From Octopus sinensis (Eukaryota), in the NCBI RefSeq assembly GCF_006345805.1, contig NW_021831284.1:496001-560000 (forward strand): a stretch of DNA of 64,000 nt, written 5' to 3'. Position numbers and translations under genes: made by a program. Below, one piece after another: positions 3,764 to 59,449 of this stretch. The notes under the pieces are model-generated. The model saw nothing but the letters and a program-made list of their open reading frames with translations. It searched no databases and had not been told where the DNA came from. The number at the start of each line of letters is the position of its first letter. Within the stretch, counting starts at the first letter, position 1.

Positions 3764-4323
3764 TCTTTAATTTGCGGTATTTTATAAATAAATATCTTAA
3801 TTATTGTTTATTATAAAATTATATAAATAATAATATTGGATATAATCAAATTAATATATTTGCTAGTTGAAAAAACAATAATGATATCTAGGTTTGTTTG
3901 ACAGTCCAACATTACTACATGTGGTTTAATCAAATTCGAGGTTGAAAACTCGGGGAAAATAAAATAAACCTGTTTTCAGACAATAAAGGGAGATTTTACT
4001 TTTCTTGCGTGCTTCTAGTATTTATATTTTGTTATAAAATTTATAACATTGCCCATTCAAGTAAGAAAAATCTAACTAGAATGCAGGATACCTTGTGGAG
4101 TAGGATCCAATGAGAAACTGTCTTTATTGATACTGAAAAAAGGATGTTACAACTTAGAGACCATAAAAGGCAGTATCGGCTATATATTTATTCATTTAAC
4201 TTTATTCCTCTTGAAATTGAGAAGAATGGGGCACGAAGAAAACTGATTAAATATATTGTCGACTTAGAGAATTTTTTTTATCTTTATTAAAAAAGAAACT
4301 AATTAACTAAGTAATTTTTCTAA

Positions 4324-6640
4324 CTAAATCCAGAGCCTTCTGAGTGAGCTTTCTTCACCTTGACTATTTAATCTTTTTTTTAAATCTGGAATTAATTTCC
4401 GGGGAAACAGTTTGGCAATCCGCCAGGCTACATATCTACCATAAACATAATACTATTAAAAAATTAAATAAGTCAAAAAAAAATTTATGATAAAGAAAAA
4501 GAGAAGTTAACTAAATTAGATGAGTCGCCGAGCAAATGGACAGGCAAATTCCACGTAATATCGCGAACGATATCGTTTCACAACTGTCGTGACTTCTCCT
4601 CGAGATGATTAAACTAATTTCTGAGAGGAGTTTGAGAGCTTTTTGGCCAATTACCTCACTGGTTTCAAAAGCCAGGGGCCGAAGCAACAAATGTCAGTCA
4701 AAGAAGTTTCAGCAGGTCGGCGTGTAAGCGGATATCTTCAAGTATGTGCGAACAATATATATTATCCCATTCGTTATGGGGGCATCGGTATTCGCTCTTG
4801 TGATTTATCCCTTCCGTGTTACCTATCATCGTTGTCCGCTTCCACTAATTTTGTTAACTATGTTCTTTTTCTCTCTTCTGAACAGTGCGAGTTGTTGGAA
4901 TATGTGGCTGGTATCAACGAGTAAGTTTCTCGGGGGCTTAAAGTTTCGGACATTCCATCTTTTTAATCTTTTTAACTTGTTTTTAATAATTTTGGTAAAT
5001 TTTTGGTAGAGTATCTTGATAAAGTTATTTTACAGGTTATTTGTGTCCATTTGATTAATAATTCAATCTCAATTGAATGCATTTTTTAAATAATATGTCA
5101 CAGGCGCTGGGCATTACCAAGCGCTACGGGTTACCCAAGTGGATTCAGACGTGGAAATCCAGGCTATTCCATAGAGACCGTTTGCCACCTTGGACAAGCC
5201 CGTTCGAACAATACTACGGGGTCGCCAATGATCGTACAGATAAACTTGAGCAGAGACCCATGCATCATGACAATCAGAAAACAACACCGGTATATCGTCA
5301 ATAATGGAACCGGCCTCGAGGTTGGAAAGAACATGGGGTTGATATAAAAACCCTTTGTTGTTGATATAAAAACCCTCTCTTGTCGAGATTTCCCTCGGCG
5401 TGCTTCAGTTGTAAACTTGAGCATTTCGGAGGCTTGAGGATTCCTTTTGAGACCAGGACAAGTCTTTGGGGGTGTTTGCTTCGGTTTCCAAGAAGACTTT
5501 GCAGGTTTTGATTTTTGTGGGATTTGTTTCTTAGAAGAAGTGACAGTCTTTTTGTTACGCATATTGAGGCCAACCCACTTATGCCTTGACAGAGATTCAT
5601 TGTCAGTAGTCTCAAGGAGTGCGTCCAAAACTTGTTTGACGATAGTGAGGTAATGGGCCCTAACAGAGTCACGCATAGAGTCGAAGGGAACATTATACGG
5701 TTTGTCTAAGTCAGCCTGATGAAAAGGGCGTCGGGAAAATGTAGCGAAAAACCCAATATCGCCAATACTCCGATAACTATCGACTTGTTGGAAGAAAACA
5801 AATTTGGGAACAATCTTCTTATTTCTTCGAAGTAAGAAAAATTGTCAGTCTGGAACACAAAAAGAGAAATGTCCAAAGACCTCAGCGCTGGCTAGACGGA
5901 ATCACTTCAACTGATTTCATAATGGTTGGGTGGGTGATCCGAAAACGGGGCACTCGTGAACCGTCAAGAACATTCACGCTATCAAGTTTACATATAACAC
6001 TTATGTCTCTGAAATCGATATAAAATATGAAATCAAATGGGCATAAGCGTTTGAAAACCAAAGAATGTTAAAAAAAACATGTTCTAAAACAGAGGTGTTT
6101 CCTGACAGAAGTAAAAAGTCACATCTGGGAACGCTGAGAGATGGAACATGCACAAAATAATGGCCTCTAGAACAAGAGAGAAGATTAGAGTCACCGTATG
6201 GACCATTAATGCGGGAGGAATCATATCGGCAAGGGGATTTGGGTCGAAGGAATCAATTATGACCCTAATGTTTAAACGAAAAAGTTTTGAAATTTTGTCC
6301 AAGAAATCTTTAAAAGTATTGCCATCAACAATGGTCAGAGAGTATCGACTCAACTCGGGCGCAAAGGACGAAAAATCAATGTGGTGGTAATCTCGAGAGT
6401 TCATATGCATACTTTAAGCACGCAAGCAAGCAAAGATCGTCGACCTCAGAATTGAACCACCCCTCAGGGATCAACACAGTAAAAGAAACTGTGTCAGGCT
6501 GGCTTAAGCAACTTAAACCATCAGGGGAGATGTCGTTAGGGATTAAATTGACAGGAAATTTTCGTAAGATATTCTCCTTCATTCAAAAGAGCTCACCCTT
6601 GGATAAGGCTAATGAGTCACACATGACTTATTAGGCTCGT
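4324..6640 (-). pseudogene. Unassigned intronless gene family, copy 1 (broken; interrupted by other DNA at about 4480-5090)
   Basis: GC-richer stretch with ORFs 6376-6582, 6084-6410 and 5164-5676, stops and frameshifts. It shares motifs and a 3' tail with 57374-58521. Confidence 0.45.
4520..4930. mobile_element. CRE-clade non-LTR retrotransposon fragments in opposite orientations
   Basis: The + strand reads IRYGGIGIRSCDLSLPCYLSS, matching 33639 RWGGLGLRSCFDLALPAYLSS. The 4520-4620 part matches the minus-strand 3' tail at 37235-37330. Confidence 0.7.
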
Positions 6641-7689
6641 TGTCTACCATAGTTACTAAATAGCTCACAAAAACGCTAAACAAGGACGAACGCCATAATG
6701 AAAACTGCCTTGGTCTTACCATCATAATTTGTTGGATTGATTTATTTTGACAGTAATTTAATTTAATCTTTTCTCACCTTCACTTTTTATCTTATTTATA
6801 AGTTAATCTTCTTTAAATTCACTAGTGAAGTTCGGCCTTTATTGGGTCTAGCCTTGCTGAAATGTTTTTTTTTCTAGCCACTTTCTGGCCCTGGCTTCTA
6901 AATGATTTATTTATAGGTTGTCTGTGGCGAGTACAAATATAGATAAATCACTTCCATTGTCTTTGGAGCCTTACGTACGATTGCTTAAGATATGCTAAAA
7001 TTGATGCCACTCACAACATCACTTCTGAGTTTCAACCGAGACATCTTTTGGGTCATTCTGCGGTTCGAAAGGGGGACAACACGATTTGCAGAGATATATC
7101 TACTAAATTTTTCGATTTGCAGAGATATCTACTTGGTAAAATCCAAAAAAAATTCTAATTATATTATAATAAAATATTCGTTCTATTATAGTTAACTTTT
7201 TTGGGAAACCTAACATAATCGGATAACCACGTTACTATTCGTGATTTTTTTAATGTTGTGCATTGTTTTTATTCGTGAAATATATTTTCATATATTAAGG
7301 GTTAATTTGTATTAAAATTGATTAAATATAGTGTTGATTGATAGAATTTCTTATTATATTCGATATTCTATCATTGAATTGGTTTTATTTTCACATTAAT
7401 TTAGTCTTTTTTACATTTTAACCATTCAATATTTCTTGGATTTTTTACACATTTTTATTTCTTGCCTATTTTTATATTTATTACAATTTTACTGTATGAA
7501 AATTCAATAATTTCTATATTCTTGAAATATTTTTATTTTTTTGTTTTTTCTCAATATTTTTTTTTGAATGAGAATTTTGAAATGTTTTATGTTCCGAGTC
7601 GAGAATGAAATCGAGCCGAGACTGAAATTATGACAGCTGTCATCATTCCCAATCCTTGTCAAAAATAAGATAATCAAACTTGTAATCCG

Positions 7690-8075
7690 TCGACCAAGTG
7701 AGCGAAGGAAGGGAAGGGATTTCCCCCTGCTTGTATGGGAAGGTGGACATGCCGTCCCCTCTATCCAGTCCAACAGGTTCGAGAATTGACGGGACGCCGG
7801 CGGAAGCGAGGGCTCTCTGTATGATCGAGTTAAGTTCACTGTCAGCCCTACTCGGAGAGACATTGCGATTCTTAGGCATTCCTTGTCCACCAGGTTCCCT
7901 ATGGAAGGGAGAGCCTTTAACCAGGCGCCGCTGCCTTCACAGCGACCTGCACGGAGGCAAGCGACACGGTGTTGATTGGAGACGGGAAGGATGCCTTTGA
8001 AAATTGCCTGACATGAGATTTCGTCCCATTGACGCTGGACAGATTGAGACTTGGGCAGCTTCGAGCCAAACTGAG
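7690..8075. mobile_element. CRE-clade RLE-domain fragments
   Basis: The minus strand reads ELNSIIQRALASAGVPSILEPVGLDRGDG. The adjacent + strand piece FRPIDAGQIETWAA resembles the F.P.A.ET.G motif. Confidence 0.7.
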
Positions 8076-9458: not shown

Positions 9459-10302
9459 ATGAACAATGACATGGAAGCTTTGTATACTCTAGAAGAGTTG
9501 ACATATCTAATATTATTATAGAGGAGAGTGCCTCCCATCTTCCTCCAACGACTCGGAAAGCAGCACAGATTGGGTGGCCTTCACAAATTCTCTACGAAGA
9601 CATGACCAATACATTCCTCCTTCTCCCCCTGTCGAAGAGGACGACTGGAACATCCCCTCAATCCACCTCACCAACATCACCCTTCAATTACACCCAGTCG
9701 GACTCCTCCGTCTGTCCATCAACCCTATTTCCGCTACCGTGGAAGGGACGAGTGATACCCCTCCACTTGCAGAGGACACTGTCCTTCTCCTCCACAAAGA
9801 CACTCCTCTAGGCATAGTCAAAGAAATATTCGGCCTTGTTGAAAAGCCCTCCTATGTGGTCGGCCTGTGTGAGGAAGCCCTCGATCTGATTTCCCGTGGA
9901 ATAGTTCTCAACAACACACAAGTGTTCTGTGTCCCCCAAGACCCCACACTCACTCAATTTGTCTTCAATGTCGACTCCCTTAAACAGTCTCTTCTTGGAG
10001 GTCTATTTTAGAACACGTGGTTCTGACGCTTCTTGGATTGGGAACACTGAACCACCCCCACAGGTTGTTTTATTTAGTCTTATTTATAGCACTTGGACTA
10101 CTCTGACGACGAACAGGAGAAGTGTGCCCGACTCGAGTCTAAACTGGGAGTCACCAATGAGGAGGCTATACGAATTCGCCAACAAAGGAAACAGAGATCG
10201 ATCAATCGAAGAAAACCCCCCACTATGGGAATGTGGCCTCCTCCTTGGCGATATCCGCCACGATCTGGCTACCCTTACTATCCTTTCTATCCACCATTTT
10301 GA
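9459..10302 (+). CDS. NAF1: H/ACA snoRNP assembly factor NAF1
   Basis: PPLAEDTVL...LGIVKEIFGLVEKPSYVV...RGSDASWIGNTEPPP..DYSDDEQEK and a Pro/Tyr-rich tail. Removing introns 9497-9521 (25 nt), 9987-10011 (25 nt) and 10064-10089 (26 nt) gives one open frame. Confidence 0.92.
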
Positions 10303-10802
10303 TTTACTTTATTTTATAAAAGATTAAGACACAGTTGAAATGATTCTAATTTGTCTAACATTTGGAGTATTTCTCTCCTTAATGAACCACGTCTCATAGC
10401 TTGTCAAGTTTTGTAGGAATAAACTATTAAATCACCACAGCCTGTATAAAACTCATTTCTAAATAATTTTCCGAAAGACAAAAATACTCAAACACTCATC
10501 CCATTTAAGAAGTTGTACGTGGTCTTTCTATAGTCTTGTAAGAAACCAATTCTCTATCTATTATACAAGGTTTTTATTTTTCTTTATTTGTCATTGTAGT
10601 CTATGAATACGTTTATATTCTATCGACATGTCTTCAAAATCTTAGAGAGGATGTTGAAAAAATGGCATAAGCGGAATGTACAAGTTGCGGGGAAAGCGAT
10701 ATGTGTTAATAATAAATTAAGTAAATAAGCCCACAAAATAAATCAAAGGATAACAGTATTAGTCAAACTAACCCATTAAACCAAGAAGAGAGTCAATATG
10801 TT

Positions 10803-11899: not shown

Positions 11900-12625
11900 T
11901 TTTTTTTTTTTTTTTAAGCTAGATTAGTTTTATATTATAAATCGTCACGCTCCGGCAGCCAGTATCGCGTGCGTGTTGCCACGAAGAACTGCAATTCCGA
12001 TACGTTGGCGAAGCCAATACCCCTCGCGACTGTCCCTCCTTCGTTTAGCCAGCATCGCCCCAATTTCCTTGAGAAATTCCGCGGTTTTGGATCCCACTAC
12101 ACCAGACGTCTCTATCGAGATTGGGACAAAACGGAAAGTTTTCCGATCTCCAAATACTTAGATATCTTCGCCTTTTCTGCTGCATTAGCAGCCAACCGGG
12201 CGAATGAATATTCCGAAGAATCATGGACTGGGAGAACGTGTCTACGCACGTCGCATCCCATGCGAGTGATTTTCCCTGGGAGTACGGGAAAAGAGTTATC
12301 CCATCGGGCCTCTGCAATCTCCCCGGTCAAGCCCGATGGGTTCCAGGTGTGCTGGAAATCCTGCGCTCTCGAGGGCCCGTCGTATTATGTCGTTGAGTGC
12401 GGCATGGCGGGGAGCGCGACCTGCACTCCTCTTGCAAGACAAAGGGTGTAGTCCTTTGGAATCGACTATTCCTCCACACCGGCATCTGTGTTCCTGACAG
12501 ACGTCAAGACCCAAGCGTTGTGCAACACGATTCTCACACAATCGTCGTCCATAAGCGTACCGAATGAACTGCATGGAAATGCGTGGAGCCATGCACCACT
12601 CCGTGCTGTGCCCCGGATAGCAAAC
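11900..12625 (-). mobile_element. 5'-truncated CRE-clade retrotransposon with poly(A) tail
   Basis: [54 protein letters not shown]. The T14 run at 11901-11914 is the poly(A) tail on the element strand. Confidence 0.9.
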
Positions 12626-17970: not shown

Positions 17971-20900
17971 TTAGTTTGTTACTTGGAAATTCATCGCATA
18001 ATTCGTTTGAGAGAAAAAATATTTCCAAACTATAAAACCAACCACTCCAGTTAGGGCTACTCCTCCTACTGACAATCCAACGATTAATGGCAGATTTAAA
18101 GTTTCCTTTTTTTTTTCTTAGAATAAAAGTTTACCGAATTTGTATAAATAAGTTTATCACCATAAACTACGTTTTCGACACCGAGACTTCCTTCGAAAAA
18201 CTTGAGGACGTTATTTGTATATAAACTCGTTTTAAATAATTTAACTGATTCGTCCATTTCAGTATTATTTCCAATCATAAAAACAGCAATTTGTTTATTT
18301 TCTAATAAATGTATATAGAAATAAATAGAAATACCCGAAACTATAGAAAAATTGGTGAAATCTATATTTGAAAAATCCCGACTGATATAATTGAATAGAA
18401 TTGCTTCAATGTATAGGGCGTCAACACCAATGCTCAATATATTTTTATCAAATTGAATAACTACACTTTTTACAACAGACAAATTCCAATTAAAATCTAT
18501 TTTTAATACAAAGAATCATACTGGTATTACGAACTCGGATTATTTGACTTTTTGTTGAAAGATCGTAATCATTCGGCTGACTAAAAACCGCAATGTTTAA
18601 TATATAATATCCAAAATTAGGGAATGAAAAATTTGAAAGATTAATAGTGCCATTTACAATTTGCTGTCTTTTTAGAATGCTTGGTGTATGCCCAAAAACG
18701 CTTGTATCACTTTCATTGATTTCATAAATCCAATTATTTATCTATTCACTCTGAATATCAAAATTAAACCCTCCATGTTAAACTTCCAACACTTATATTT
18801 TCAACCGTATCTTTCACTAATAATAGACCGGACATATTTTGGTATGTCGTGACAACATTATCAAAAATTGACACTTCTGCTGACAATTGTCTTTTCAGAA
18901 TGTTTATCTGATGAACAACAGTAGTAATCGAAGAGTTTAGACTCTATCAATAACAAAAATAAAAGTATACTCTAAAAGTGAAAGAATAATTATTTCCATA
19001 AAATGGAATCCTTAGAGAAGTAAAATTAGCAGTTCCCAATATAAAACTAGCCAATGACCCTTGCGAAAATGTTTGAAGAACAGTTCCATTGTGGGAAATA
19101 TCTAGTTGAATCTTCCATGGGTCGTACACGGATCCGACGATTTCCAAAGTAGAATTCTAAATTGAACAATTTCAATAAACATTTTCGTCCTGCATGATCA
19201 TTGAGAATCCTATATGAGATAAAGATTCTTCATAAAGTGTTATTGGTTGTGATATTATGACTAATTTTTGAGGAATTAAAATTTGTAATAAATTGCTCGA
19301 ATATCCCTCATAAAGAATGGTTTCTGTTGGTGGAATGGGTTCAGCAATCGATACGCCTGAGATCTATAAAAAGTATATTAAAATTTAATATTTACAGAAA
19401 TGTTCAAAATATTTGAAATTCCTGAACTCTGCGCTGTGTTTAAAATCACTGATGATATATTCTGAAGTTGTTGATCAGTCATAAAAGAAGAAGAGTTAGT
19501 CGTTTCATTATATGAATTTGATATTTCAATTAAAAATAGCGTGGTAGAAGTAGCTCTATTTATTTAAATAAAATTTTCAACCTTTTTGATCTTGGCGCAG
19601 AATTTTCTTTAACGACATTTACAATTCGAACTTTATTGGAAGGAATTCCGAGAAATGCAATTAAATTTTCCAATACGTTAGCTCCGAAGAAATCTACTTC
19701 AGGAACGACCGTTGATAGTCCAATTATGACACTCTCAGTAAATTTAATATCAATTGCTTCTGAGCCTTTTAGACCTACGTAAAGGAATTTTGTTGATCGA
19801 TTCCGATAATTCTGTCCAGAAATTGTGTTATGAACATTTGGAATGGTATCTTTTTAAGCATTAAAAAATATTTCTTAGTACCGCTAGGAAATATTGGGAT
19901 TGAATTAGTAGACGTTTCAGTTGCTTGTACCCGATTAAAAAAATATCTAATGACTATTCTATCAGTTGGATCAGCATTAATCATTCTCAGTCTCAAATGC
20001 TTTGGTACTGTGGATGTAAAATATAAATGATACAACTTTCCTATTGAAAAATAATAACTTTTAATATACCGGTTGCAACAATTGCATAAAATGTCGATAT
20101 TCTTTTCTGGCAAGTGTAACCGTTACACCAGCCATGATCCGCGGGCCCATTTAAAAGATCGAGGTACCCATCGCCCCGAATAGCTACTGGAGAGAGTCTT
20201 CGCTTTTCAGTGTCATGATCCATACTTTCAATTATCATTATGCGATAATTAAGGCCACAACATTTATATGCTTGCCACTCAGCATTATAAACACAATTTT
20301 GATCTCTTAGTATTCCTAACAGATTATAAAAATTACATACCTAAATGTTGCCGGACTAAATTAATTGGAATCATGGAACCATTTGAATATATTTTCATAC
20401 TTGTAGGAATGCGATAGTCTCCAGTTCCTCTCCTTCTATCGCCGTTCCAAGCAAACTCTGATTTTGGAAAAGCCGCACAGTTCGGAGAACCCAGAAAACT
20501 TCCATCAGAATCAGTGATCAAAGTTTTCTTATTTCCATCACAATCCATATCAACACAATCAGATGGATTTATTTTTCTATATATAAATGATGTGAGTACT
20601 GTAATGGAGGCAAAGTCATGTATATATAGTTTTTACTCGGGAAATTATAAAAACGAATTCTAGATATTATCACCGGATGTTGAAAGTCGTAACTTTTGTC
20701 ACTTGTCATAATGAAAACGTCTTTAACACAACTTACGGAGTTATATGTGTCAACTGTGATGTCTAAATTGTTAAAATTAAAAAAATAATAACTACCGGAA
20801 ATGACCATAAGTCCAGATAAAGAAGGATATGCCATTGGTGTTGTCCAATCTTTATTTGCCATTTTAAGACTCCCGGAGATAAAATTAGGAAAAAATATTC

Positions 20901-23900
20901 CTACTCTCGCATTATTAGTAATTGAAAAGACACTCGAAGCTGTTAATAAACCATTCTATTAAATAAAAATAAAATTGGATACAATTCTGACAGAGGTGTC
21001 AGTTTTACAGTCAAAAAATGGTGTGGTCATTAGTATAGTAGAATTTCGAACGGTGACCGTTTGATTACTAGTAAGATGCCTTAAAGGAGAAGGTCCGATA
21101 ATAAATGTATATACTCCAACGTTATTTTCGATCAAAATAACATTTTCGACTACAATGCTGGCAGTAGAGTGTACATAAATTCCAAAATTATAAAATTTCC
21201 AAATAATAAAATCTAAAAATAAAACATTTAATACCATACTTTGGATAGTGAGACAACTCGGTTCTGGAGAATGTTCTTTGAGATGAAAAATAACGACGCC
21301 ATTTAATCCAGATTTAGCAATATTTTTCTTAAAAGTTGAAAGTCCGCCGTTGCATGAATCACCGCTAATACGATAAGCTATCGTCTGAGAGCCGGCAACA
21401 ACATTTCCAATCAATTCAGTCTATCAAAATTAATTCGTTAAAAATAAAACATTGGTAGCTTCATTTATTGTGATTGCTCCTTTCCATAATATATTTTGAT
21501 CCCATTTTCCATTATATAATCCTTCATAGATATGAGAAACGATAAGATTTTGTTCTATTTTTGTACCAGAACTTGTTGATATAATTCCTAGCGAAGTTAA
21601 AATCGAGAATTATACCAGGACCAACGGGGCGATATATTATATTGTTTGATACCTCTAGCTTATTTGTTCTATAAACTCCTATAGTCGGTGAATAGCATTC
21701 ATGAAATGATGACATTCTGACATATGCCGGTCTTAATGAATTAATTTCACCAATGTCCATAAATGTTATCGAATATCTGGCATCAGTTTTACTATCATAA
21801 TCGAATTGGCCAGTTTTATAAAATTCGACGTTCTTAATACGCGCAAAACCTTAATTTCAGTAAAAATATAAACCTGTATAAATTTTTCCTTCATGTACTG
21901 TTTTTCCTACAAGAACACGGCCTCCGAAGGGAGAAAATGTCTGACCTCCGATAATCTTTATATTCCTTGATAACAACCCAACGGAAGCAGAAAGCTGATG
22001 GACTGTATTCCCTACAATGTAAAGTTCACCTATAAAATTAAAATTTGTATCGTGCATACCCAAATGTTTATAATTAAGAGGTCTGTTTAGCTCCAAGACT
22101 GTTCCGCCATTCATTATATTGTTTATAACGACTTTTTCGCCTTCATTTACATTATAGGATGTCGAAGAAATAATAATTTCATCTCCGATATTCCAATCAA
22201 CAATATCTTGCAAGTAAATTTTTCTATCTCCAATATTTGCAGTCTTGTTCAATGTAGTAGAATAAATATTTTTGGCTTCGCCATGAAAATCTAGTCCTCC
22301 AAAACAAGCTATAATTGAATTATTTTTTCAACTTTCTTACCAATTACTTTAGTACCTACCAACGGACCAGTTATTAATGGAAATGTTGCAGAATTTTTAT
22401 TCCCAATTAACGTTATTTCGAGCTTTCCACGGAAAGAACGGTCTTCTGTTCCAGCTATTATTCTTCCGCCTCTTATAAAAATAATTTCGACCGACAAATA
22501 AAAATCTCGATATCCGGATATTGTTGAGTTGTCAATATCGTCGAATTCTAAAACTCCATATATATGTAATTCCTTTATTTTTGGAAGTTTTACATCCACC
22601 AATACGTAAACATCTTAAAGATAATTATTAATAAAACTAGCCTGAAGAAATAACAACTGTATCACCATTTGATGGCAATCCCCCATTTCCAAAGTCTTTA
22701 CTTGCGTTCCATTTATTGTTTGTAAAACGCCAAATATTAGTATTTGACCATCTCAAAGCATCTTTTGGTCTGTTCCGTGACGGAGGGAGACTTCCTTTAT
22801 CTGCTGGAGCCTCACATTTTAAATAAAAGCAGCGATAAGCATTAAATCTTATGTTAATTCTTCGAATATCAGAATATTTGTTCGGATTATTTGTTTTTGG
22901 CGACATGACTAAGTTTTAAAATTTAATTTACTACCGATGTAGCTTAATTTATTTTCAAGTGAATCATAGTACCAATCTCCATTTTTATTCTGCTCGTGGC
23001 TTAAAGGGAGTAATGACATAGGGCGAAATGTACTATCAATAGTAAAAACTCGATCAGGTTTATAATTCATCGGAATACTGACAATTACATAGTCTCCACT
23101 CTGTTTGATTATAAGCACGAACATTATTATACAATCAGATTATCAATAACTCCAGTATAAGAGATATTCGTTAAATTGGATTCCGTTGATAATGTAATAA
23201 ATATTTCATCATTTGTAGGGAAAATGGACATCCATCCAAGAGGTGAAGTAACCCTTTTTTCAGCAAAGTAGCTTGTATCATTTCCATAAGAATTTACTAT
23301 TTTTATACTGCGCCCCAAATACATATCAGGATTAATTTCTATTTTTAATTAAAATAATTACTATTAAATGACAATCTTGCGAACCTGTATTTGGGTGGGC
23401 AAAAGAGCGATTCCAACCCACGAGTGTTATTTGTATTTATTGCACAGTCGGGCGGTATAAGTTTAGAATATGGAACAATATTTGTTTTAGAACCAGTCAA
23501 AGATCCATCAGAGTCAACAATAATCCCTTCGTGTTTCCAATTCCATTTGTATCGGTTTTGCGAATTTATAAAATGAATATTTTTCATAAAATATAAAAAT
23601 CCTATTAGAAATTACTAATATAAATAAAACCAACCTCCTGAAAAAGTTGAACTTGTCCCAGAAATTTTTGCTAAAACAAAACATTGACCACGTGATGTAT
23701 TGTAGTTATAAAAATTAACATTATTAAGAGTCAATCCACTTGATAGAGGTAGAACAACTCCACTAGAAGAAGATATGTGTGTAATTCCGGGAACGTAAGC
23801 TAAAAAGGTTTATTTTAAATATTACCAATTATATCACTGTTATTTAGATATGGACCTGAATTTGAATATATTGTATTTTCAGAATTATGCATAAGTTCTA

Positions 23901-26900
23901 TATTTGCAACCTTGTTTGCAACAGTTACAAAATTATCAAATTGCAAGGCACCACCATTGGTCCATTCAGCTCCCTTTTGATTGTGCCATGAAGTAAAATT
24001 GCTAAATTTTGCGACTACAGGAATTCCCGATCTCCACCCTTTATAACGCGGAGTATAACTGCAAGTTATTAGATTACTTTAAAAGAAATAAAACCCTTCA
24101 AAAATCCATAGTCCGTACCATCCTTGAGAATGTACTTCGTTTCCTGTGAAAATTCCCATTTCTCCTTTATTTGGTACGATATTCCATACATAAGAAGGCC
24201 CGTCAACCGTTGCATGCAATCTGTACCTATATTTACATATTTTAATCAAAATAATAATCACCAGAAACCGAAATGTGTTCCGCCTGCCACAGTGTTGTGC
24301 CTTATTATATTTTTCGGATGAGTGACCCAGTATCCAGCAGGAGTGATGTCATCGTTTAATAAACTTGAGCTATGTTTCACGTAAACGAGTAAATTATATT
24401 CGAATATATTATTTGTTTCAATTCCATCTTCAAGAAAAAATGCACCGCCCATTATGTTATATCCAACATTTCTTTTCACAACAAGTCCATGAGAACCTTA
24501 AAAATTAACTACGTTATAAAACCGTGAATGTTAACAGCCCTGTTGAAACTGTTATGAATAGCACACCCATTTACATATGATTTCTCATTCCAGCCAGAAA
24601 GGTGATAATGTATTGGATATCGTCCAAGACGGAACGCTTGTCCGACGTGGTTAAATTCAACGTGTGAAAATTTTCCGATCGCCTCATCCATACTTGGATG
24701 TCTCGGAGCAATCATTACTGTTCCTCCAAACTGATCATCTCCTATTTCATCGCCTTCTCTCCCTTGGAAACATGTTTGAACTGCAAATTGGCCTATATTT
24801 ATTAGATATGAATTTATTTGGATAAAACCCATTTTGAATCCGTCAGGGCATCTTTCTATTTTGAAGGAATAATTCATGTTTTTAGTTCCAATTATTTTTA
24901 CATTTCTTGTGAGCAATCCAACGTCAGCTCGCATTTTAACCTGTTTTCCATTACCGTAGTTATACGTGTATGATAGTTTACGATATCTAAAATTTTATAA
25001 AATTTGGGTTATGTTACTTTATTGGTTCGACTAGAGTTATAATCTTACGATTTAATGATATATTTGCGATTCTATGTATTTCATTTTCTTTAGCACTATC
25101 CATATCACCTGTGCTAGATATGATAATAGTTTCATTTTTCTTTTTATGTTATTATTAAACAAAACTCGCCAATCAACAGGATCTTCTAATTCTATAATGT
25201 TGATTCCGACATCGACAGATTTCGAGAGCTTAGTCCAAGTTATATTTCGATATTTTCCTTAATGGATAACGATAAAACAATAACCATGAAGTTCAATTAT
25301 ACCTTCACGGACGCCAATAACGTTAGAACCAAAAATTGGGAAAGTTTTTGACAAAAATTTGGAATGCAATTCAATCAACGCCTTATGTTGAAATGGTTTA
25401 TTTTCTTGACCAATCTAATTTTTTTAATCTAAACCACATTCATTACTTGCAACAATCCGCCATTTGTGATAAAAATATTTTCGGCATGAAGTTCAAGATC
25501 CTTCTCGTCAAATGTCAAAGATCCGCCTTAAAATATGATTTTGGCTAAACTTTTAAATACCATTAATTAATAAAATTTGGAGTATTGGTGTATTTACGTC
25601 TAGAAGAATATTCAACCCATGAGGAATAACTACAATTTCTCCAGCCTTCGGTATATCATAACCTCCCCAAGTAAACCGAGAAGACCAGACATTTACATAT
25701 TCAAATAATATATTTGTTATATTTTTCTAAAATAAATAATAAAAATAAACGGCATATGCGAAGCCACTGTCTATAGAATAAACGTTTACTCTTGATTTTC
25801 GGTTTCCTATATGTGATCCTGACGTACAAGTAATCAAATTATCCGTAATTCCTTTTATCACACAGATTGAGTTGTCAATTGTGACTCGAGTCAAATTCGT
25901 GTTGTTTCTAAATATTTAAATATGAACTACCCAAATCCTTTTCCTACTATCGATATAAGGGTTCCGCCAGCAGTTCCACCCCTTTTTGGACTAATGCGAT
26001 CTATAAACTGAGTTTTATTGTCAGTATATATAAATTCGTTTGAACTTTGAATAGATAATAAATTCGTTTCAATGTTAATACTACAATTTGTATTATTTTT
26101 GGTATCTAAAATTAGTTATGTAAATAAGTAACAGTTTATTTGTGGTGTTTCAACAAAAATAGAACTGTGATTTCGAAAATCAACAATCCTTGCCGGTTTG
26201 TTACATATCAACACAGACATATTGTTGCTAAATCCATTTCCCATAATTCCAATTTTTTGTCCGCCACCAAACCCACCTAAAATAATTTGTAAATGTCAAT
26301 TACCCTTAGTAGGAAAAATATCTGTGATTTTTAATAAGTTTGTATAGTTTTTAAATATGTTTGAATAGCCGTAATTTATGCGTCTTAATTGTACAGCATA
26401 GTTTCCGTAGTCTAAATCGGGTGTCACACATTTTAGAATTGTTGCATTTATTTGAGTAATATTACAGTTCTTATTGCCAATGAATACAATATATTTACTT
26501 ATATTTATGCCGAAACCTGGAAATTTAAATACTTAAAAGTTACCATTATAACTAATTGAAATTTCGGTATTGCGTGAACCGTTTGTTGGGTTTATTCGTG
26601 TAATATTCGGACTAAGGGAACCATCGTAGTGAAATAAAAATTGGTTAAAGATATAGTTGCTACTTCTTATCGACATATTTTTGATTCCTGGAGATGAAGA
26701 ATGTGTTTTACAAAATATCTATATTAGTATTATACAAACATAAATACCATATTTTGCCTACATGATAATATTTCGCAATGTGTACTTTCTATATGTACTG
26801 TTGTGTCGTTGCAAATAAAGCCATATCCACTTATTTTTATTTCAGTTCCTCCATATATGCTACCTGACATAGGATTTATATTTGTGATCGATCCATAACT

Positions 26901-29900
26901 TTTTAAAATGTTATTTGTTTCAAATTTTGCATTACCATATCCAGCAATATAAAAAGAAATGTTGTGATCACCAGAATTTAAAAACGGGATTACAAAAAAT
27001 ACACTTGAATTTGATGAATTTAATGGGAAATATCTCATGTTATTTATTTTTAATTCTATAGATCCATTGCCAGAAATTAGTCTGTCTCCAATAATTTGTA
27101 TTGTTGTATTTGAGCTTGTAATGTTTTCCGGAATTATTTTTTTGATAATAGGAGTATGATTAGTTGAGAATTCAAATTTAATATTATTAACATTCACTGC
27201 ATTATATCTTCTTCCGTCCGAAAATATATCAATTATAATATCGGCAAATGTATCATTGGTTTTGAATACATATGTACGACAGTGAATGTTTGTAATTGAC
27301 AAATAAACAATGTCACATTGGTGACCTCCAATTCTTACATTCGTTTGATTTATTTTAAATCCCCAGCCATTGATGGATACTAATGTGTTTCCTGCCGTTG
27401 ATCCTTTATTTGGTAGAATTTCGAAAAATTCTGGTCTCAAAAACAAAGAATTTGTTGTACCGTGTTCCATTTCAAATATTCCGTAACCAATATTCTTTAC
27501 TTTAATTTTCAATAAAGATTTATAGCCAAAAGGAGAATTTTGTGTTTTATTTAATTTACATACAATTTTATTTTCGCCTGCTTCGAAAACAATGCATCTA
27601 TGTCCATCGAGGGTGACGTTGTTTTGACATATTTTTTTACCAAAATTTATTCCTAAATATATTTTAGACATATTGATTAAACCTATAATTGTGATATTGT
27701 CCATAATGCTTTCGTTTGTTTTTACGACTGATAATATTTTAATTAATCCGCAATTCCCAAAGTTAAAAGAAAAGTTTGAATTTACAGAACAGTTAAGTGT
27801 AGACGAACAATTTGCTAACTCATAATTGATATGTCGATTAAATTCTTAATTTTAAATAAAAATGTAAACTTGCATAGATAGGGCTTATTCCACCTATTTT
27901 AATGTTTAGAGGTAATGACTGATTAATTCCATTTTTAACATTTACAATTCCTTTAAGAGAAATGTTACTATATTTATTAACTGGCAGAGACCAATAAAAA
28001 TATTTTCCAGGTTTAAAAAATTGACGTTTATAGCTTCCTGAAACATTTTGGTAATTTTTTTACCTTTGTATGTTGCTTGACCACTATCAAACCCACTTTT
28101 CACTGGTCTTGTATCGATTAGTGAACGTATCTGTTGAATTTTATAGTTGACGCTAATAATTCCTGGTGGTGTAGACCAGGTCCATAATACCGAGTCTCCG
28201 ATATTTATGGTTATTTCATTATGAGACCAGATATAACCAACACCATATACTACAAGGTAGTTAGAAATACATAAACTATACTTGGATGTACTCCCAAGTT
28301 CGTAATATTGTGTATTACACGGTTTCCAGTTGTTTCACATATCAAAGTTGAATAGTTCACATATTTAACATTGCATGGATGATTTCCGAAATGCACCGAA
28401 AAGTCTAACGGATTTTTTGAAAAACCGCTTCCGTGAATATGAATATTTGTCCCTCCAAATATTGATCCAAACGTTGGGAACATTGAATTAACGTTAAAAA
28501 TATATTTTAATTTTTGTAGTTCCAGTCTTCTATTTTTAAAAATATAAAATTCAATACTGGTTAATAATTTGATTTCCTACAAGAATTTCAAATGAATAAT
28601 TTCCCGGAAGCATTGATGGAGTTTTGAAATAAAAAGAATTATTTTGACAAGATGACTGATTTATTATGTGCTCGTTTAATTTTAAAAATGTAAAATTATT
28701 TCCACATTGTAAATTTGTTATGTTTATTTCCAAAGTTTGATTGCCTTCAATGTAAAAATATAATCTAACCTAAAACGTTCAAAGTTAGTGGACGAAAGTT
28801 TTCAATTATTGGCCCCGTATAATTATTATAACTCATTTGGCCAATATTATATGATTCATTAGTATGTAGCGTAACATTATATGTTCCAGGTAACTAAAGA
28901 ATTACTTGCAATAAATAATGTGCATTTTGGCTAGGAGTCACAAAAGTTATTTGTTTAACTGTCGCTCTAGTTATTAAGGCATTTTTATTTCCGACAAATA
29001 TCGAAAAATTTCCATAAAACCCCATCCCATCAATAGTTATGTACTTACCACCTAATTGAATATACCTCTTAAATAAACCATAAAGGTCAGTTGAGTTGTG
29101 AGAAATAGTATTGACTGAAAGAGGAAACTTGAAACAAAATACTTGCGATAATCGAGCATACCCCAAATTTTTAACAAATATTGATATATTGCAGGGTGAA
29201 TATTCTTTATTGACGATTATCAAAGTACAGTTGATTTGTTCATTTGATGAATAATATACCAAACAATCGTTTTCAGAAATTCGAATTATATTGTTTATTA
29301 TTTCTGCGCTAAACTTTGTTCCTTTGATTGTGATATTAGTTCTAGCATTTCTTACTAATTTTTAATATTTTAAAATTTTTTATTACTTAAAATTGGGGAA
29401 ATATCCAATACTGTAGGAGTAGATCTATTTGTTTTTAAAAACGTGCAACTTCCATTGCAAATAGAAGGAGAATCATTTATAATTACTTCAACTTGTGGAT
29501 CTTTAAATTGTTGTCTAATCATCGATTGTTGTATTGTAGATTGTAAATATCCATCAACTAATGTTATTGTAGATCCTTGAATTTGATCGTTACCTGTGAT
29601 ATTTATCTATAATTTTATTATTTAATAAATAAATCAAAACCTTTAGTAATTCTGCGTCTCCGTTGTAAGATTTGAATATTATATCAGCCATTAAAGACTG
29701 GCAAGTGCGTTGTTCACTGATTGTCACTAATCCAATTTCATTAAAGTTTTCCAAGGCTTTCTGGAAATTTTCGGAATTTATTTGTACTAAAAATATATTA
29801 TAAATATTACAGCATAAAGGAATCTCGCAGTAATTCCATTTTGTATGATTATAGTCCGTATAGCACCAAGGACCAAACGGTTTGTTGTCAGGATTTCGAC

Positions 29901-32900
29901 AAAAATTAAGTTCACTTGTTTTATTTGAAAAATACGTCGAATTCCAATTTACACATTTAAACCCATTTTTAGTAAAAGATGTCGTCCCAGTATAATTGAT
30001 TCCTTTCACAGTGGTCTTACAGTCCAAAACTAATTTAGACAAACTTTAATTAAACCTTGTGAAGCTTTAATAGACCTTCCTTTAAATGTAAATATAATAT
30101 CTCCTTCAGGAGGTAAAGTGGCATTTGAAAGTGACTGACTAAATGTAAAATTTGTCGAAGTGTTATTTTTTGATTTCTAAATAACATCATCCAGTATAGA
30201 GTGTACATTTATAACAGTCATTAATGGTAATTTTCCGAAACATTTATGAAAACTATAAGTAACAGTAATGCTGTTTTCAAATTTTACGACAGATACAGCT
30301 TCAACAGAGTGTTGTCCAAGAACTCGCCTTGTTTTCAAAATTGCTAGCATATTTAAATCACTGAAAAACCAATTTTATCTAAATTTCTAGCCGTTTTAGA
30401 CAAAGAAACAAGATCGTAGTAAATAGTTCCATTATTTATTATGTTGATTTTTTTGACTAATACTATTGAAGATTGTACATTATTCATCAATAAAGTCAAG
30501 TCAATGCATTCGTAATTCCAATCACTAAATATAAATTTTATTTATCTGACTGAATTGAATTTTCCAGTGTTATTTCATACGTATAAGAAACATAGTCTAT
30601 ACTGTTATTGGAATATTCAATTTCTAATTCTTTAGGTGAATAACCATTATATGCAAAGCATAACTATTCGAATACCAAAAATATAAAACCATTTTAAATA
30701 TTGCTATATTTGGCTGGTTTTTATCTATTGCGCGAAACATTGATTCCAAATTTTTAAAAGAATACAATCCACAGAAGGCGTTTCCAAAGTGGTTTGAATG
30801 AGTTATACTCGATTCAAAATCTTCGACATAAAAAACTGAATCTGATTTTTTATTAAAATTTCGTGGACAGCGATTTCCATATCCGGACAAAATCTTTGCT
30901 GAAATCTATAATTTATTTAAAAACTTCTAATTTACTTCTATTTCAGTCAATTGAGATGAAATTGGAGGTAAATTATATTTTCCTACGTTAAATAGTAAAT
31001 AAGAATTTCCAGGTGTCCCATTAACAATTTTTTCAATTGAATAATTTTTTATAGAATTATTAATTTCTACTATTGTGAATGGCACAAAATTTCCTAGAAA
31101 TCATAAAAATTAAAATTAACCAAAACAAACAGTAAAATTCAATTTATAACTTGTTCTTGTATTATTATCGACATAGTTTTCTACTTTAATATGATAATCG
31201 CCAAGGATCGGATGATTGTTAAATTTGTTTTCTAACTCTTGAACCGTATCTTTAGTTCTCAAAATTTCTAAAATTTCAAAATTTTGAAAGACCGGTTTCA
31301 ATATCATTGAAATTTATTCTGTATTGAATATTACTTTCATTTTTATTAATAACTATTTGATAAACTTCGTGTGTCGAATTTTCAGCCGTTTGATTATTAA
31401 AAAAATAACGCTATTAATAATAATTCTATTAAATTCATACATGTTTTTCATATTGATAGTTGTAATTGATGATTATTTTTTGTTTTTCAGCTACAACTAA
31501 CTGCAATATTTTGTTAGAATATGGAGATTCAAATAACTTGAACGAAGCTTCAAGTGTTGATTTCCAAATATAATTCTTGTATATTCGGAGAAAATATCTA
31601 AAGATTCAATTTATAAATATACAAAACCCTTTATTCTTTTGCATATAAAATGATTTGAATAAATAGTCTTCACAATTTGTCGTCTTAATTTGATAAAAAT
31701 ATAATGAGATACCAAATTTTCAAAAGTAATGCAAAACGAAGATTTGGTATTGTCATTTATATAAAATTTATAATGTCCAGTCTTTGGAGGATAAAAATAC
31801 CCCGATAGCCTAACAACTTTATTTCCATCTGGCAAATGTTCTTTTCCAGATAAAGCTGTTTTGAAATTATAACCGGACGGATATGTTGCCGTATAGTTTT
31901 TTATTTCATTGTTATTAGAAAAATTTAAAGGGGTGTCCCAATATTCGAGTAAAAATCCTCTACTACCTGAAATAATTTATTTAGAAAAGAAATAATAAAT
32001 ACCTGCGTATAATTTTCTGAAGTTTAATGTAGATTTTGTCAAACTGCATACAATTGTATCATTTGAAATAGAATTTATGTTGCATTTTTCTCCTTTGTAA
32101 TAATGATGTATCAATTCTTACCTCCAACATAAACTTTTGTACTATCATTGTAAAAATATTTTCCAAATATTTTTATTTGAGTCCCGCCAAATATACTTCC
32201 TTCATTTGGAATGATCGAATTAATTGCTGTAAAAATAAAGATTGTTTAAGAGTTTAAAACTTGCATAAGCTTCATATTGTCCAAATTGCATGTTGCTGAA
32301 CAACATCAACGATCCAATATCTGCCTTTGATCTGTTAAAATAATATTTCTGAAAAATTAAATACCTTCCATAATATCGATCAATTATAATACTTCCATTA
32401 ATACCTCCTATTCGCACGTTTGAAAGTTTACACTTAAATTGTCCAAAAAATTTAGATGTAAGATTAAAATCGTATCTAATATATCAATAAAAATTGTTGA
32501 ATACGGTTTGCTTGTAACTGGATCAATTATTTCACAGTTTTTGTTTCCAAAATATATTCTAGGATTATAATAACAATAGTTACCTAGTGAACTTTGGAAA
32601 AATTTCCTTAGAAACCCCAATTTCGTTATTTAGATAAATCGTTGAATAAAAAGATCCAGAAACAGTTATTAATTGGTCTGCAATTAGAAAATCAATTGGG
32701 AACCTGGTGATCCAGTATTTGGGACTACACTCGTTATTCTTGGTGTGCAACTCCACCGAGACTATAGATTATTAAAACAACAAAAAATATAAACAAAAAA
32801 CATGCAATTGTAAATATGTCTGTTTTGACATATTTGCTCATCCGGAATCCTGATTCCATCAACTTCTACATGCAAATAATAGTTTCCAATTTCCATGGGT

Positions 32901-37008: not shown

Positions 37009-37229
37009 TGTAACGTACATGAGGCGATAGTACTCAGTTGAACAAAAACCTTGATTAAAAATGGAAACTAAAAGGAAGTTTGTGGCAATCTCTGTTTTAA
37101 GCGAAGAAGAGAAATTACTGATGACCTGGATTTCTAATTAGATAATTTAAAATAGAATTCACATTTATTGTATAATTTGTTGATTTTTTTAAAGATAAAG
37201 AAAAACATAAAGAACTTTTTGCTAATTTA

Positions 37230-56353: not shown

Positions 56354-57373
56354 TCAATTCAAATATAATTATTTATTATCATTAATTTTAAATTATTAAA
56401 AAATATTATAACTTGATAAAGACATCTATTTATAAATTAAAATTTTGATTTCCAATTTGATGGTCAACCCTATCATTAGTCAATATGTGCAGTGGATTGT
56501 TACTATAAAAAGTTCTAAAAAATCTACGACTGTCCCCGACACACTCTGAGTCACTTTAATGAATGACCCGTATCTAAAATGACGTAATACCCCAACAATA
56601 AATATCGAGTCTGGACGTCTTTGGTCAAATCCAAGGCATCGAGTGACCCCATTCCGCAGATTTCATTCCTACTCGCAGACAATCCACACCTGCATTGATG
56701 AGGCTAATGACCTGGAGACAGTCACCACTGTTTCATTGGCACAATATTTTACCATTTCCTCCAATCATCCTATTTTACTAAAAGTAAAGATATTTTTGTA
56801 AAACTACTACAAATTCTCTCTGACTATGGATTTGAATTAAGTATGCTTGTATGTTTGTGCACCGATAGTACTTCTCGTTTTTTTACTTATACGAACCTTG
56901 CAAAACTTACACTTAGATAATGATTCAGGATTCAAGAATGTCTCTCTAAGAAATCTATGCTATTTTGAAAATTCAGAGATTTCTTCAAATTTAGACTCAA
57001 TTGAAAATTCAACTATTTTAACTTAGAATTTATGCTTAAGCGATTCTAATTTTAAAATTCCCAAAAACAATGAATAGGAAAATCAATATTCACAATATTA
57101 AATATGAATTTACTGTTAAAGATAAAGTTTAGATAAAAAAGTGGATAGGTTCAAATTAAAAAACATTTCGGAATGAACACATCGTGGCGGCTGAATGAAT
57201 ACAAGTCCCCATTCTATCTGGCTGCTGAAATAATTAACATTATTTCAAATATTCGAGTCGAGGTAAATCAATCATTCTTTATTTAATAGATTAAATATAC
57301 TAAAAGAGAGGTTTATACGTTACTAATGACAAGACTAACATTATTAATAAAAAGAAACTAATTAATTGCCTAT

Positions 57374-58521
57374 TTAAGTCCAGAGCCTTTTAAGTGAACA
57401 GAGAATGGCACTCTACGAACCTCCTCCCCTTCTTCCTTCCTTCTCTTCTCTGGCACTGTAGACCATCGAGAAAGTGTAGTCCATCGCCTTTCGCTAACGT
57501 CAGGGAAGGAGTGGATCGGCGAGCATCAAACAAGACAATCTCCAAACCCCTCTCCTAACCGACTCATTGTCCATAAGTTTCATGAGGCAGTGGAGTGGCA
57601 TTTAAACAGGCACTGCTGTGGGGACGACAGGATGTCTCAAAGCAGCCCAAGCGATGTTGATCGAGGAATGCGCGGAATGACTTAATACGCGATTCAAGGC
57701 GAATTTCGTCCTAAGTAAATTGCCTTTGCCGAAGGTCCAGAGTTTCAAGACCAAACGAGTGCCACTTCAGGGACGCCGATGATAACTCGAAATGCACGTA
57801 ATGTTTGAAGTCAGTTAAAAGAACTGTGCCCATGAGTTTCTGGCATAAAGAAAGTCACGAAAGGTACGCAAGTAGTGCGACATCATTCGGTACCAAAGTC
57901 CGAGGCTTCCGTGGCGTATAAGGAGAATCAAATTCAACATTGCATATTGATAGGAAGTTTCCAAAATCAGTTATGATGTTTTTATGCAGAAACCATAGTG
58001 CGCTTTTGAGAGAGTAAAGCAATTTGCGAAGGGCAAAAAAGTTTTTGGCAAAAAACAAGCCGACGTAGCTGTCCAACATTGTGAGGCTGGTCAAAAAACG
58101 GATGAGTTTGGAATGTTTAATACGAAAATCAGATTCAATAACGGTTGATAGAATATGGGATTCGAGAATCGCTGACATCAGTCGCTGACATCAGTCGTGT
58201 GTACTTGACAAAGACAAGTGCGGAGGGACGATAGTAGTTGGCCAAAGCATTCATGACCAAGGTGACAGGCTGATTGCGGAAGAGTTCGGTTGTCTCCCCT
58301 CGGATCGACAGGCATTCTCCCGGCCTTTGTTTGGGTTCTGGTAATTTTACTGTATGCTGTCCAAAATTTGGGGTATTTTGGATTGAACATTTTTGATTGG
58401 CGTAACCAATCACGTTCTTTTTCAGTTTGAGTTGTCTGACAAAGTGTTTTTCAATGGTTCTTATTATTTCTTTCAGTAGAGTTCTATCTAGGAGATCCAA
58501 GTATCTTTTAAGCTTCGACAT
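57374..58521 (-). pseudogene. Unassigned intronless gene family, copy 2 (broken)
   Basis: GC-richer ORFs 58135-58521 and 57855-58178 continue through stops to 57374. A 14-nt tandem duplication (tcgctgacatcag) near 58169-58196 shifts the frame. It shares motifs with 4324-6640. Confidence 0.5.
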
Positions 58522-59449
58522 AAGTCAATTTTTTAAGCAAAAAATTTTAGACTCCGGAACTATTTGGGATTTTTTGTTTTGAGTTGATTTGTTGATAGTA
58601 CTTCTCCAAGAAACTGCTCAATAGACTTCTAATGCAGTCCTCTGCTCTAATAAAGAATGGGTTAAAAAGAATACACGATTTACATTATAAAAATTATAAA
58701 AGCTATCAAAAATAATTATCATTATAAAAATAGGCGTTCAATGACTTATTTGCCCCACTGTATTCTATCAAAAAAATATGAAAAACAAACAGAATTGTGT
58801 TTTAATTAATTAAAATAATGTTTTTTTCATTAATAAATTATTTTAATTTTTAGTTACCCAATTATTAATAGAAAACCTAATAAATTATTGCACGTGTGAG
58901 CACGTTGTTGACATTCCTTGTTGTATTGTTACATTATTTGATCGTTCTTTGTTTTTTTATTTAATTGGATTAGAAGGAATATTTTGCGATGTAGTTTCTT
59001 TTAATGGATAAATTATCTGAAATTTCATCATTTTGTAATATTTGCGAGATTATTCTTTCAATCTGTTTATTCCACTTATTTTGAAATCTTCTTTATATTT
59101 ATCTATTGAATTTTACGCTATTTTTTGATAGAAAGTTCTATTCTTTATATTCTTATAGTAGATTTTTATTTATTTGTTCCTGGATTTTTTTAAAAGCGTG
59201 AGCTGCTTTTTTAAATTTTTCAAAATATTATTTTATTTTTAATTTGAATGGTAATTTATCCAACCGCAACGAAGGGTTTGTTCCATAATCTTTTTTAACT
59301 CGAACCTATCTATAATTTTTTATCTAAACTTTGTCTCCGACACTAAATTCGTATTTTCTATTGATCCAATAACGCAGCTGTTACATCATTAATCAGAATA
59401 AGTATGTATTGTCCATCTTAAAGTTCAACACCGTATTTCAACGTGCATT

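What the first reader, a model, noticed from the sequence alone, without database searches (positions are those of the whole stretch)
4245..6640. Unassigned intronless gene family, copy 1: candidate new mobile element or endogenous virus
Seen: this GC-richer region lacks micro-introns and is collinear by eye with 57374-58521. FGHFSFCVP..RRNKKIVPKFV aligns with FGNFLSICNV..RKPRTLVPNDV; LDALLETTDNESLSRHKW with LHCLMKLMDNESVRRGVW; ICTIIGDPVVLFERACPRWQTVS with LSCLMLADPLLPDVSERRWTTLS. Both end SL(R/K)RLW(I/T)-stop. The DNA tails share aaagaaactaattaa...tccagagcctt.t.agtga (4292-4347 and 57351-57397) and gattaaatata. I see no RT, DDE, tyrosine recombinase or capsid motif. Inference: dispersed, intronless, decaying, diverged copies among TE debris behave like a selfish or viral gene, not a host gene. 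The upstream motif DDLCLLACL...KISKLFRLNIRV faintly recalls Polinton-associated proteins, which is weak evidence.
Basis: partly seen in the sequence, partly recalled or inferred. Interest (0 to 1): 0.72.

Follow-up and report, generated by a model that had tools for sequence, protein, structure and literature searches.

The report
Fossil noda-like RNA virus in genome
This stretch is a broken DNA copy of part of an RNA virus distantly related to nodaviruses, one of many such copies in this genome, likely pasted in by a jumping gene's reverse transcriptase together with a repeated element that may help turn such copies into antiviral guide RNAs, while the proposed 'second copy' is unrelated jumping-gene debris.

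Summary
The family is real, but the proposed pairing is wrong. Window 6732-5150 (minus) is a frameshifted endogenous copy of a noda-like +ssRNA virus: the end of the RdRp, a 330-aa extension without database relatives (OTU-like lead, unproven) and a likely capsid start. The better-preserved frame matches 19 loci in G000. Sister copies carry RdRp motifs B/C and a nodavirus methyltransferase. Copies differ mostly at silent sites (57 synonymous: 6 replacement codons), so distinct strains were captured separately. Region 57374-58521 scores no better than shuffles (37 of 100); it is retroelement debris, and the shared tail is a LINE poly(A) end. The viral piece abuts a diverged copy of a 1.1-kb repeat (R). 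In held loci, 18 of 59 viral blocks lie within 300 nt upstream of R in the same sense, none in the three other geometries. [quoted passage not shown] The scan noted this one-strand virus/repeat pattern before on other DNA of this genome (e1-10356704). Verdict: new variant of a known kind.

The parts
6598..6732 (-). C-terminal end of a noda-like RdRp domain (5'-truncated; holds stops)
   Evidence: 60% over 45 aa to the RdRp frame of L017, which carries motifs B and C and hits PDB 8fm9 at E 5e-7
5590..6597 (-). About 330-aa C-terminal extension of the replicase, frameshifted; 6150-6480 holds a Cys...His pattern that recalls OTU proteases (lead only)
   Evidence: 39% to L005 residues 96-489, E 7e-69; frame pieces; no relatives; Atlas lead
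5150..5562 (-). Start of the downstream ORF, likely capsid: conserved Met, basic arm, then a beta-rich stretch; 3'-truncated
   Evidence: 18 K+R against 2 D+E in the first 60 aa; sister pieces; junction compared in six copies; capsid identity not significant
4957..5149 (-). Diverged, 5'-truncated piece of the R repeat, joined directly to the viral 3' end
   Evidence: Score 83 against 36 for shuffles, 0 of 200, versus R copy L091; first 75 nt versus L092 0 of 500; junction bridged by a DNA contig
4962..4972 (.). Candidate target-site duplication, left copy (11 nt)
   Evidence: Identical to 6762-6772; 10 of 1000 like-AT control pieces give such a match; overlaps the end of a CRE match by about 5 nt
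6762..6772 (.). Candidate target-site duplication, right copy
4761..4966 (+). CRE-type retroelement fragment (not viral)
   Evidence: tblastn E 6e-5; 75-77% DNA matches
4500..4700 (-). CRE-type endonuclease fragment (not viral)
   Evidence: E 5e-10 to the window remnant at 37161-37427
4398..4471 (+). 3' end of a CRE-type element
   Evidence: 93-100% to CRE ends in L159-L168
4272..4349 (-).
   Evidence: 91% to L165/L167
7151..7593 (-). Older R-like piece upstream of the viral insert
   Evidence: about 59% over 395 nt, E 1e-8 to 5e-10, AT-rich
57341..57553 (-).
   Evidence: 78% over 228 nt to L167
57545..58200 (-).
58824..59187 (-). R repeat copy upstream of that remnant

Best explanation
[quoted passage not shown] Shown: viral homology, integration in host DNA, many copies from distinct strains, and the sense-first joint to R. 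Inferred: that R is a transcribed non-autonomous retroposon, that the jump was RNA to RNA, that the last ORF is capsid, and that replicase, extension and capsid shared one frame in a one-segment genome. The insert does not move by itself. A role as template for antisense piRNAs is plausible but untested.
For: Identity: L017 has RdRp motifs B and C in one frame with the shared stretch and hits 8fm9 (E 5e-7; 8fm9 as Flock House virus protein A is recalled). All 3 hits among 1.8 billion representatives fall on this stretch; two carry RdRp families and one also Noda_Vmethyltr. PF19222 passes its cut-off at 5 places in G000, one directly upstream of a sister RdRp. Separate captures: 59-84% nucleotide identity among copies, with 57/6, 62/26, 35/7 and 31/8 synonymous/replacement codons in the four pairs compared. 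Integration: DNA contigs cover 30 of 30 bins and bridge both edges. Mechanism: 18 of 59 viral blocks have R within 300 nt on the 3' side in the same sense (14 within 40 nt), 0 of 59 in each of the other three geometries; 9 of 28 loci picked by R alone have viral ORF pieces 5' of R in the same sense, none otherwise; the joint falls at different positions of R's start; same-sense chains of unrelated RNAs occur (noda-rhabdo-R in L008 and L010, rhabdo-noda-R in L152 and L190, noda-LINE in L312/L313, noda-LINE-R in L311); a candidate 11-nt target duplication flanks virus plus R. Template jumping is an established activity of R2 RT (PMC8857657, abstract).
Against: 41 of 59 viral blocks have no R within 300 nt. 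The 18 include duplicates (about 12 independent joints by my reading), and two of the five R queries came from loci tied to EVEs. R shows no poly(A) end and no Rfam match, and no autonomous partner was identified. Pieces downstream of R also point towards it (26 of 35), which template jumping alone does not predict. Some viral pieces abut LINE 5' ends in antisense (L008, L012). The target duplication is AT-rich and overlaps a CRE match. Capsid and OTU assignments failed every statistical test tried.
Confidence: 0.62

Rival explanations
1. Same viral origin, but the polarity comes from selection: R is a fixed, possibly bidirectional promoter of small piRNA clusters, pieces arrive independently, and those read antisense from R are kept. 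This can act on top of the best explanation.
For: The nearest coding piece points towards R on both sides: 42 of 48 upstream (virus 22/22, retroelements 16/21, DNA transposons 4/5) and 26 of 35 downstream. PIWI-clade genes lie on compact-intron contigs like the window's. A same-strand TE/EVE cluster makes antisense piRNAs in Aedes (PMC7161354, abstract).
Against: It does not explain joints flush with R's start or with truncated R (14 within 40 nt), R's high copy number, or the candidate target duplication. Beyond R the window's pieces are of mixed polarity. DNA-transposon counts are small (4/5 and 2/4), and the loci were chosen through virus and flank searches and are not independent.
Confidence: 0.27
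2. Free viral cDNA was patched into double-strand breaks in repeat-rich regions, and R is only a frequent neighbour.
For: Most blocks (41 of 59) lack an adjacent R; pieces are truncated at both ends and internally deleted.
Against: Chance neighbourhood gives no polarity: 18 against 0, 0 and 0, and 22 of 22.
Confidence: 0.07
3. One reading: a new self-mobile element or Polinton-associated gene with a second copy at 57 kb.
For: Dispersed, intronless, decaying copies among TE debris.
Against: Copy 2 is not homologous. The protein continues into an RNA-virus RdRp and methyltransferase. Copies share no common ends.
Confidence: 0.02
4. Assembly artefact: viral RNA reads stitched into the contig.
For: The only holder run is probably the source sample, and its kind is guessed as DNA.
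Against: The copy is full of frameshifts and stops, unlike a live virus; short-read contigs at 32-43x bridge both edges and show allele-like differences.
Confidence: 0.02

Closest known systems
Nodaviridae protein A and marine noda-like viruses (PDB 8fm9; PMC7508674, passages)
   Same: Membrane-anchor-like start, Noda_Vmethyltr, then RdRp with matching B, C and D/E motifs. One-segment noda-like genomes with a capsid ORF behind the RdRp are common (PMC7508674; L242, L249, L232).
   Different: At most 37% identity to 83 relatives; the four EVE RdRps form one clade, support 1.0, on a stem of 1.72. The frame runs at least 447 aa past the GRYF motif against 207-304 aa in 23 relatives with a closed frame, and continues into the next ORF without a stop in 4 of 6 copies.
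eBxnv-1, endogenous nodavirus of Bursaphelenchus xylophilus (PMC5177903, abstract and Results)
   Same: Nodavirus-like RdRp fixed in an invertebrate genome through a retrotransposon.
   Different: There: one RdRp copy inside a Bel/Pao LTR element. Here: at least 19 loci from several strains, covering methyltransferase to likely capsid, joined to non-LTR pieces and a non-coding repeat, often chained with rhabdo-like N.
Aedes aegypti EVE clusters (10.1101/127498, passages; PMC7161354, abstract)
   Same: Rhabdovirus N pieces are common, EVEs share the strand of neighbouring retroelements, and TE-EVE hybrids form one-strand patches.
   Different: There capture is tied to LTR elements (Ty3/gypsy, Pao) and large clusters with shown piRNAs. 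Here the neighbours found are non-LTR (APE-RT, CRE, RLE), patches are small and dispersed, and they end at one repeat; no RNA data.
Viral OTU-like proteases (PF02338 clan)
   Same: Cys then His in a spacing recalled from OTUs; nearest named Atlas cluster has PF02338 in 19% of members, score 0.77.
   Different: No Pfam, PDB or fold match. No paper on an OTU in a noda-like replicase turned up in two searches.

Membership tests
Non-retroviral endogenous viral element | Homology to an RNA-virus gene | tested here: met
Non-retroviral endogenous viral element | Contiguous with host DNA in a DNA library | tested here: met
   Contigs 5089-6007 and 6645-6969 bridge both edges; one sample only, probably the source
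Non-retroviral endogenous viral element | Germline fixation (orthologous site in other individuals or species) | not testable with these tools
   G000 has no relatives here; one study only
Nodaviridae | Nodavirus-type RdRp | tested here: met
   E 5e-7 to 8fm9; alignment
Nodaviridae | Nodavirus methyltransferase upstream of the RdRp | tested here: met
   PF19222 over cut-off; in order with the RdRp in L185; a sister copy, not the window copy
Nodaviridae | Two-segment genome, capsid on a separate RNA | tested here: not met
   The basic-arm ORF follows the replicase directly in 6 of 6 copies that span the place; rests on reading that ORF as capsid. So: noda-like, not filed in the family
Nodaviridae | Alpha- or beta-type jelly-roll capsid | tested here: inconclusive
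   No significant match; best ungapped window falls on an S-domain strand of L242 but 451 of 1000 shuffles reach it
Nodaviridae | B2 suppressor on a subgenomic RNA | not tested
   none
Viral OTU protease | Catalytic Cys and His in an OTU fold | tested here: inconclusive
   Models at pLDDT 33 and 43; no OTU row; Atlas lead 0.77; the His position is not kept in L011
flamenco-like piRNA cluster | TE and viral pieces on one strand | tested here: inconclusive
   Holds upstream of R (42 of 48); mixed beyond R in the window; patches are short
flamenco-like piRNA cluster | PIWI-clade genes in the organism | tested here: met
   3 of 3 compact-intron Piwi-domain hits tested rank PIWI proteins first; same organism as the window is inferred
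flamenco-like piRNA cluster | Long antisense precursor and phased piRNAs | not testable with these tools
   needs stranded RNA and small-RNA data
Polinton/Maverick | pPolB, integrase, ATPase or capsid genes of Polinton type in the element | tested here: not met
   The element's proteins are RNA-virus replicase parts; no Pfam family in the window frames scanned; terminal inverted repeats were not searched

The most novel reading that the evidence does not exclude
R is a dedicated, mobile 'memory cassette': a non-coding RNA that borrows LINE reverse transcriptase, picks up pieces of whatever virus or retroelement RNA is in the cell at its 5' end, and after insertion drives antisense transcription of the cargo into PIWI guides. 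That would be a dispersed, polarised acquisition system against at least three RNA-virus groups in a tiny-intron animal. The virus recorded here would also be a new deep noda-like lineage with an OTU-like protease between polymerase and capsid in one frame.
Probability: 0.22. Interest if true: 0.85.

Novelty: new variant of a known kind. Interest (0 to 1): 0.55.

Why it matters
Endogenous nodaviruses are rare in print (PMC5177903 called its case the first, in 2016). Here a deep noda-like lineage left at least 19 loci from several strains, which records repeated germline-reaching infection and a replicase layout not seen in the 83 relatives examined. The likely host is an animal with 27-28-nt introns, a trait reported only for myxobolids and Dicyema (PMC13644364, passages); one search for dicyemid viruses listed no paper on them. 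The strict polarity towards one repeat makes an open question testable: whether RNA-virus capture is an accident of retrotransposition or a directed route into piRNA immunity.

Tried and rejected
Homology of the two window regions: rejected. First idea that the frame is an extra gene of a rhabdo-like virus upstream of N: rejected, since it is noda-like and the N joints differ between loci. R as 3' UTR of the neighbouring APE-RT LINE: rejected, since full LINE copies L135, L136 and L148 lack it and its orientation varies. R as a Penelope/hammerhead element: no Rfam match in 10 loci. Protein searches without hits; a PDB hit to a C11 protease at E 0.03 was judged chance. Folding: both models low confidence, so the missing OTU match says nothing either way. 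Capsid: PF00729 found nothing in G000 and nothing in the controls; other tests were not significant. Run search: no RNA holder listed. In L008, no listed contig bridges the LINE/noda or the N/R joint by 31 nt. Tail lengths were measured in 35 of 83 relatives where the motif pattern was found, 23 with a closed frame. The tree used 62 distinct rows of 68 and has no outgroup. No earlier notes by sequence or nearby. Supplements of papers were not opened.

Full report
1. The observation. The quoted peptides are present on the minus strand. A protein comparison of 4245-6640 with 57374-58521 gives a best score of 41, which 37 of 100 shuffles reach; the viral part alone gives 41 and 39 of 100. The second region aligns instead with the C-terminal part of a CRE-type non-LTR element (score 75 against 36 shuffled; 78% DNA identity over 245 nt to the CRE stretch in L008). 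The shared tail is real but belongs to a third repeat, the poly(A) end of an RLE-type LINE (305 first-look candidates for the 4230-4500 query). The stretch 4398-4966 is made of CRE fragments.

2. What the core is. The 226-aa frame at 5164-5844 finds 7 places in G000. One, L005, has a 491-aa open frame; the window matches its residues 96-489 at 39% (E 7e-69) in pieces with at least five frame changes. That frame finds 27 matches, which I count as 19 loci on 17 contigs. Among 1.8 billion representatives it has 3 hits, all on residues 20-146; two carry RdRp families and one also Noda_Vmethyltr. L017 extends the frame upstream through motifs B and C and hits PDB 8fm9 at E 5e-7 (that 8fm9 is Flock House virus protein A is recalled). 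PF19222 passes its cut-off at 5 of 10 places in G000, and in L185 a hydrophobic stretch, the methyltransferase and a sister RdRp lie in order on one strand. The window therefore holds the end of a noda-like replicase.

3. How it differs from known noda-like viruses. The 83 related contigs are at most 37% identical. Four EVE RdRps form one clade (support 1.0, stem 1.72) among 62 rows. In 23 relatives with a closed frame the protein ends 207-304 aa after the GRYF motif; here it runs at least 447 aa, and the extension has no match among them or elsewhere. It was under purifying selection (35/7 and 31/8 synonymous/replacement codons). Its first half has a Cys...His pattern that I recall from OTU proteases; the Atlas gives only a lead (nearest named cluster PF02338 in 19% of members, score 0.77), and the folds were too poor to test it. 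Behind the extension come a conserved Met and a basic arm (18 K+R against 2 D+E in 60 aa). The frame is open across this place in 4 of 6 copies; one has a 1-nt shift and one a stop. Position and arm suggest capsid, as in one-segment relatives (L242 PF00729; L249 and L232 PF01829; PMC7508674, passages), but no test was significant.

4. Integration and history. Contigs of a run guessed as DNA cover 30 of 30 bins, at 32-43x in the longest pieces over the insert, and bridge both edges; this is probably the source sample, so it excludes a misjoin but is not independent. Copies are 59-84% identical at DNA level and differ mostly at silent sites (57/6 and 62/26 over 126 codons), so they diverged as replicating strains and were captured separately. 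The window copy is among the more decayed. The same genome holds 44 matches to a rhabdovirus-N-like frame (PF00945 E 0.0008-0.02, below cut-off) and partitivirus-like RdRp pieces (PF00680 E 2e-22; the family label is recalled).

5. The R repeat. The capsid-like piece ends at about 5150 and is followed at once by a diverged piece of an AT-rich repeat of about 1.1 kb. Of 59 merged viral blocks in the loci held, 18 have R within 300 nt on their 3' side in the same sense (14 within 40 nt) and none in the other three geometries; the nearest exception lies at 310 nt. Duplicates reduce this to about 12 independent joints, and two of five R queries came from EVE-linked loci. As a check, 9 of 28 loci chosen by R alone have viral ORF pieces 5' of R in the same sense and none elsewhere. 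With queries from R-chosen loci only, the nearest coding piece points towards R in 42 of 48 cases upstream and 26 of 35 downstream, over 60 R copies. Same-sense chains join unrelated RNAs: noda-rhabdo-R, rhabdo-noda-R, noda-LINE, noda-LINE-R. An 11-nt direct repeat flanks virus plus R in the window (4962 and 6762; 10 of 1000 controls), but it is AT-rich and overlaps a CRE match.

6. Mechanism. Most likely (0.62), a non-LTR reverse transcriptase copying R RNA jumps to viral plus-strand RNA, sometimes several times, and the joined cDNA is inserted as one unit. Template jumping is established for R2 RT (PMC8857657, abstract). It explains the polarity, the flush joints at variable points of R's start, the chains and the candidate duplication. 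It does not explain the downstream bias, which fits selection for antisense read-out from R (0.27); PIWI-clade genes are present on compact-intron contigs. Both may act. No RNA data bear on either.

7. Host. The window has 27-28-nt introns in BiP (and direct reading of the sequence), and G000 holds two sets of Piwi-domain genes, one with long introns on chromosome-size contigs and one compact on small contigs. The window's contig therefore likely comes from a second, compact animal genome within G000. Introns this short are reported only for myxobolids and Dicyema (PMC13644364, passages); which group this is was not tested.

8. Comparison and verdict. It works like the nodavirus EVE of Bursaphelenchus (PMC5177903, abstract and Results) and the strand-biased EVE patches of Aedes (10.1101/127498, passages; PMC7161354, abstract), but with non-LTR neighbours, many strains and one recurring repeat. 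It is noda-like but not filed in Nodaviridae, as the two-segment layout is not met. Searches for an OTU-bearing or polyprotein-type noda-like virus and for non-LTR capture of viral RNA listed no matching case; I saw these as listings only, apart from passages of 10.1101/451740, 10.1101/2023.11.03.565523 and PMC7508674 and the abstract of PMC12645703. The scan had noted the one-strand virus/repeat pattern on another piece of this genome; I reached it before the look-up. Verdict: new variant of a known kind, interest 0.55.

Noticed in passing
G000, 44 places (L043-L072); L140, L142, L151: Large family of rhabdovirus-N-like inserts in several sequence groups, some with long open frames.
   Followed up: partly
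L141:8540-9916; L086, L090: Partitivirus-like RdRp pieces, in L086/L090 upstream of R in the same sense.
   Followed up: partly
L133, L135, L138, L139: APE-RT LINEs with a CCHC gag nest head to tail; a short repeat lies just upstream of the ORF1 start, and viral pieces abut this end in antisense in L008, L012 and L050.
   Followed up: partly
L092:1095-2250; L090; L144: R carries a short direct repeat at both ends and an internal CRE fragment; tandem R copies occur at 0.5-kb and 3.6-kb spacing.
   Followed up: partly
L010:8253-10000; L133, L134, L140, L092: A 15-24-nt satellite with long open frames recurs beside R and the LINE arrays.
   Followed up: no
L286, L287, L291, L296-L298: At least five compact-intron Piwi-domain genes; the three tested rank PIWI-clade proteins first.
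   Followed up: partly
window 54314-56200, 19775-31976, 629-1000, 9470-10327, 52839-53705: Host genes with micro-introns, named from recalled motifs only: BiP/Hsp70, a fibrocystin-L-like protein with a kringle, OGT end, NAF1-like, doublecortin-like.
   Followed up: no
window 6940-7113: 174-nt repeat, 98% identical to L136:9786-9957, between the viral insert and the older R piece; not identified.
   Followed up: no
window 7721-8067, 11948-12612, 33466-34576, 37161-37930, 49837-50192: Many further CRE-type retroelement remnants; Tc1-like at 42991-43545 and pogo-like at 35864-36682 (labels recalled).
   Followed up: partly
G000:C7755:562251-563143 (L011): Second noda-like copy 2 kb beyond the window end, with internal deletions shared in part with L035, L039 and L040.
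   Followed up: partly
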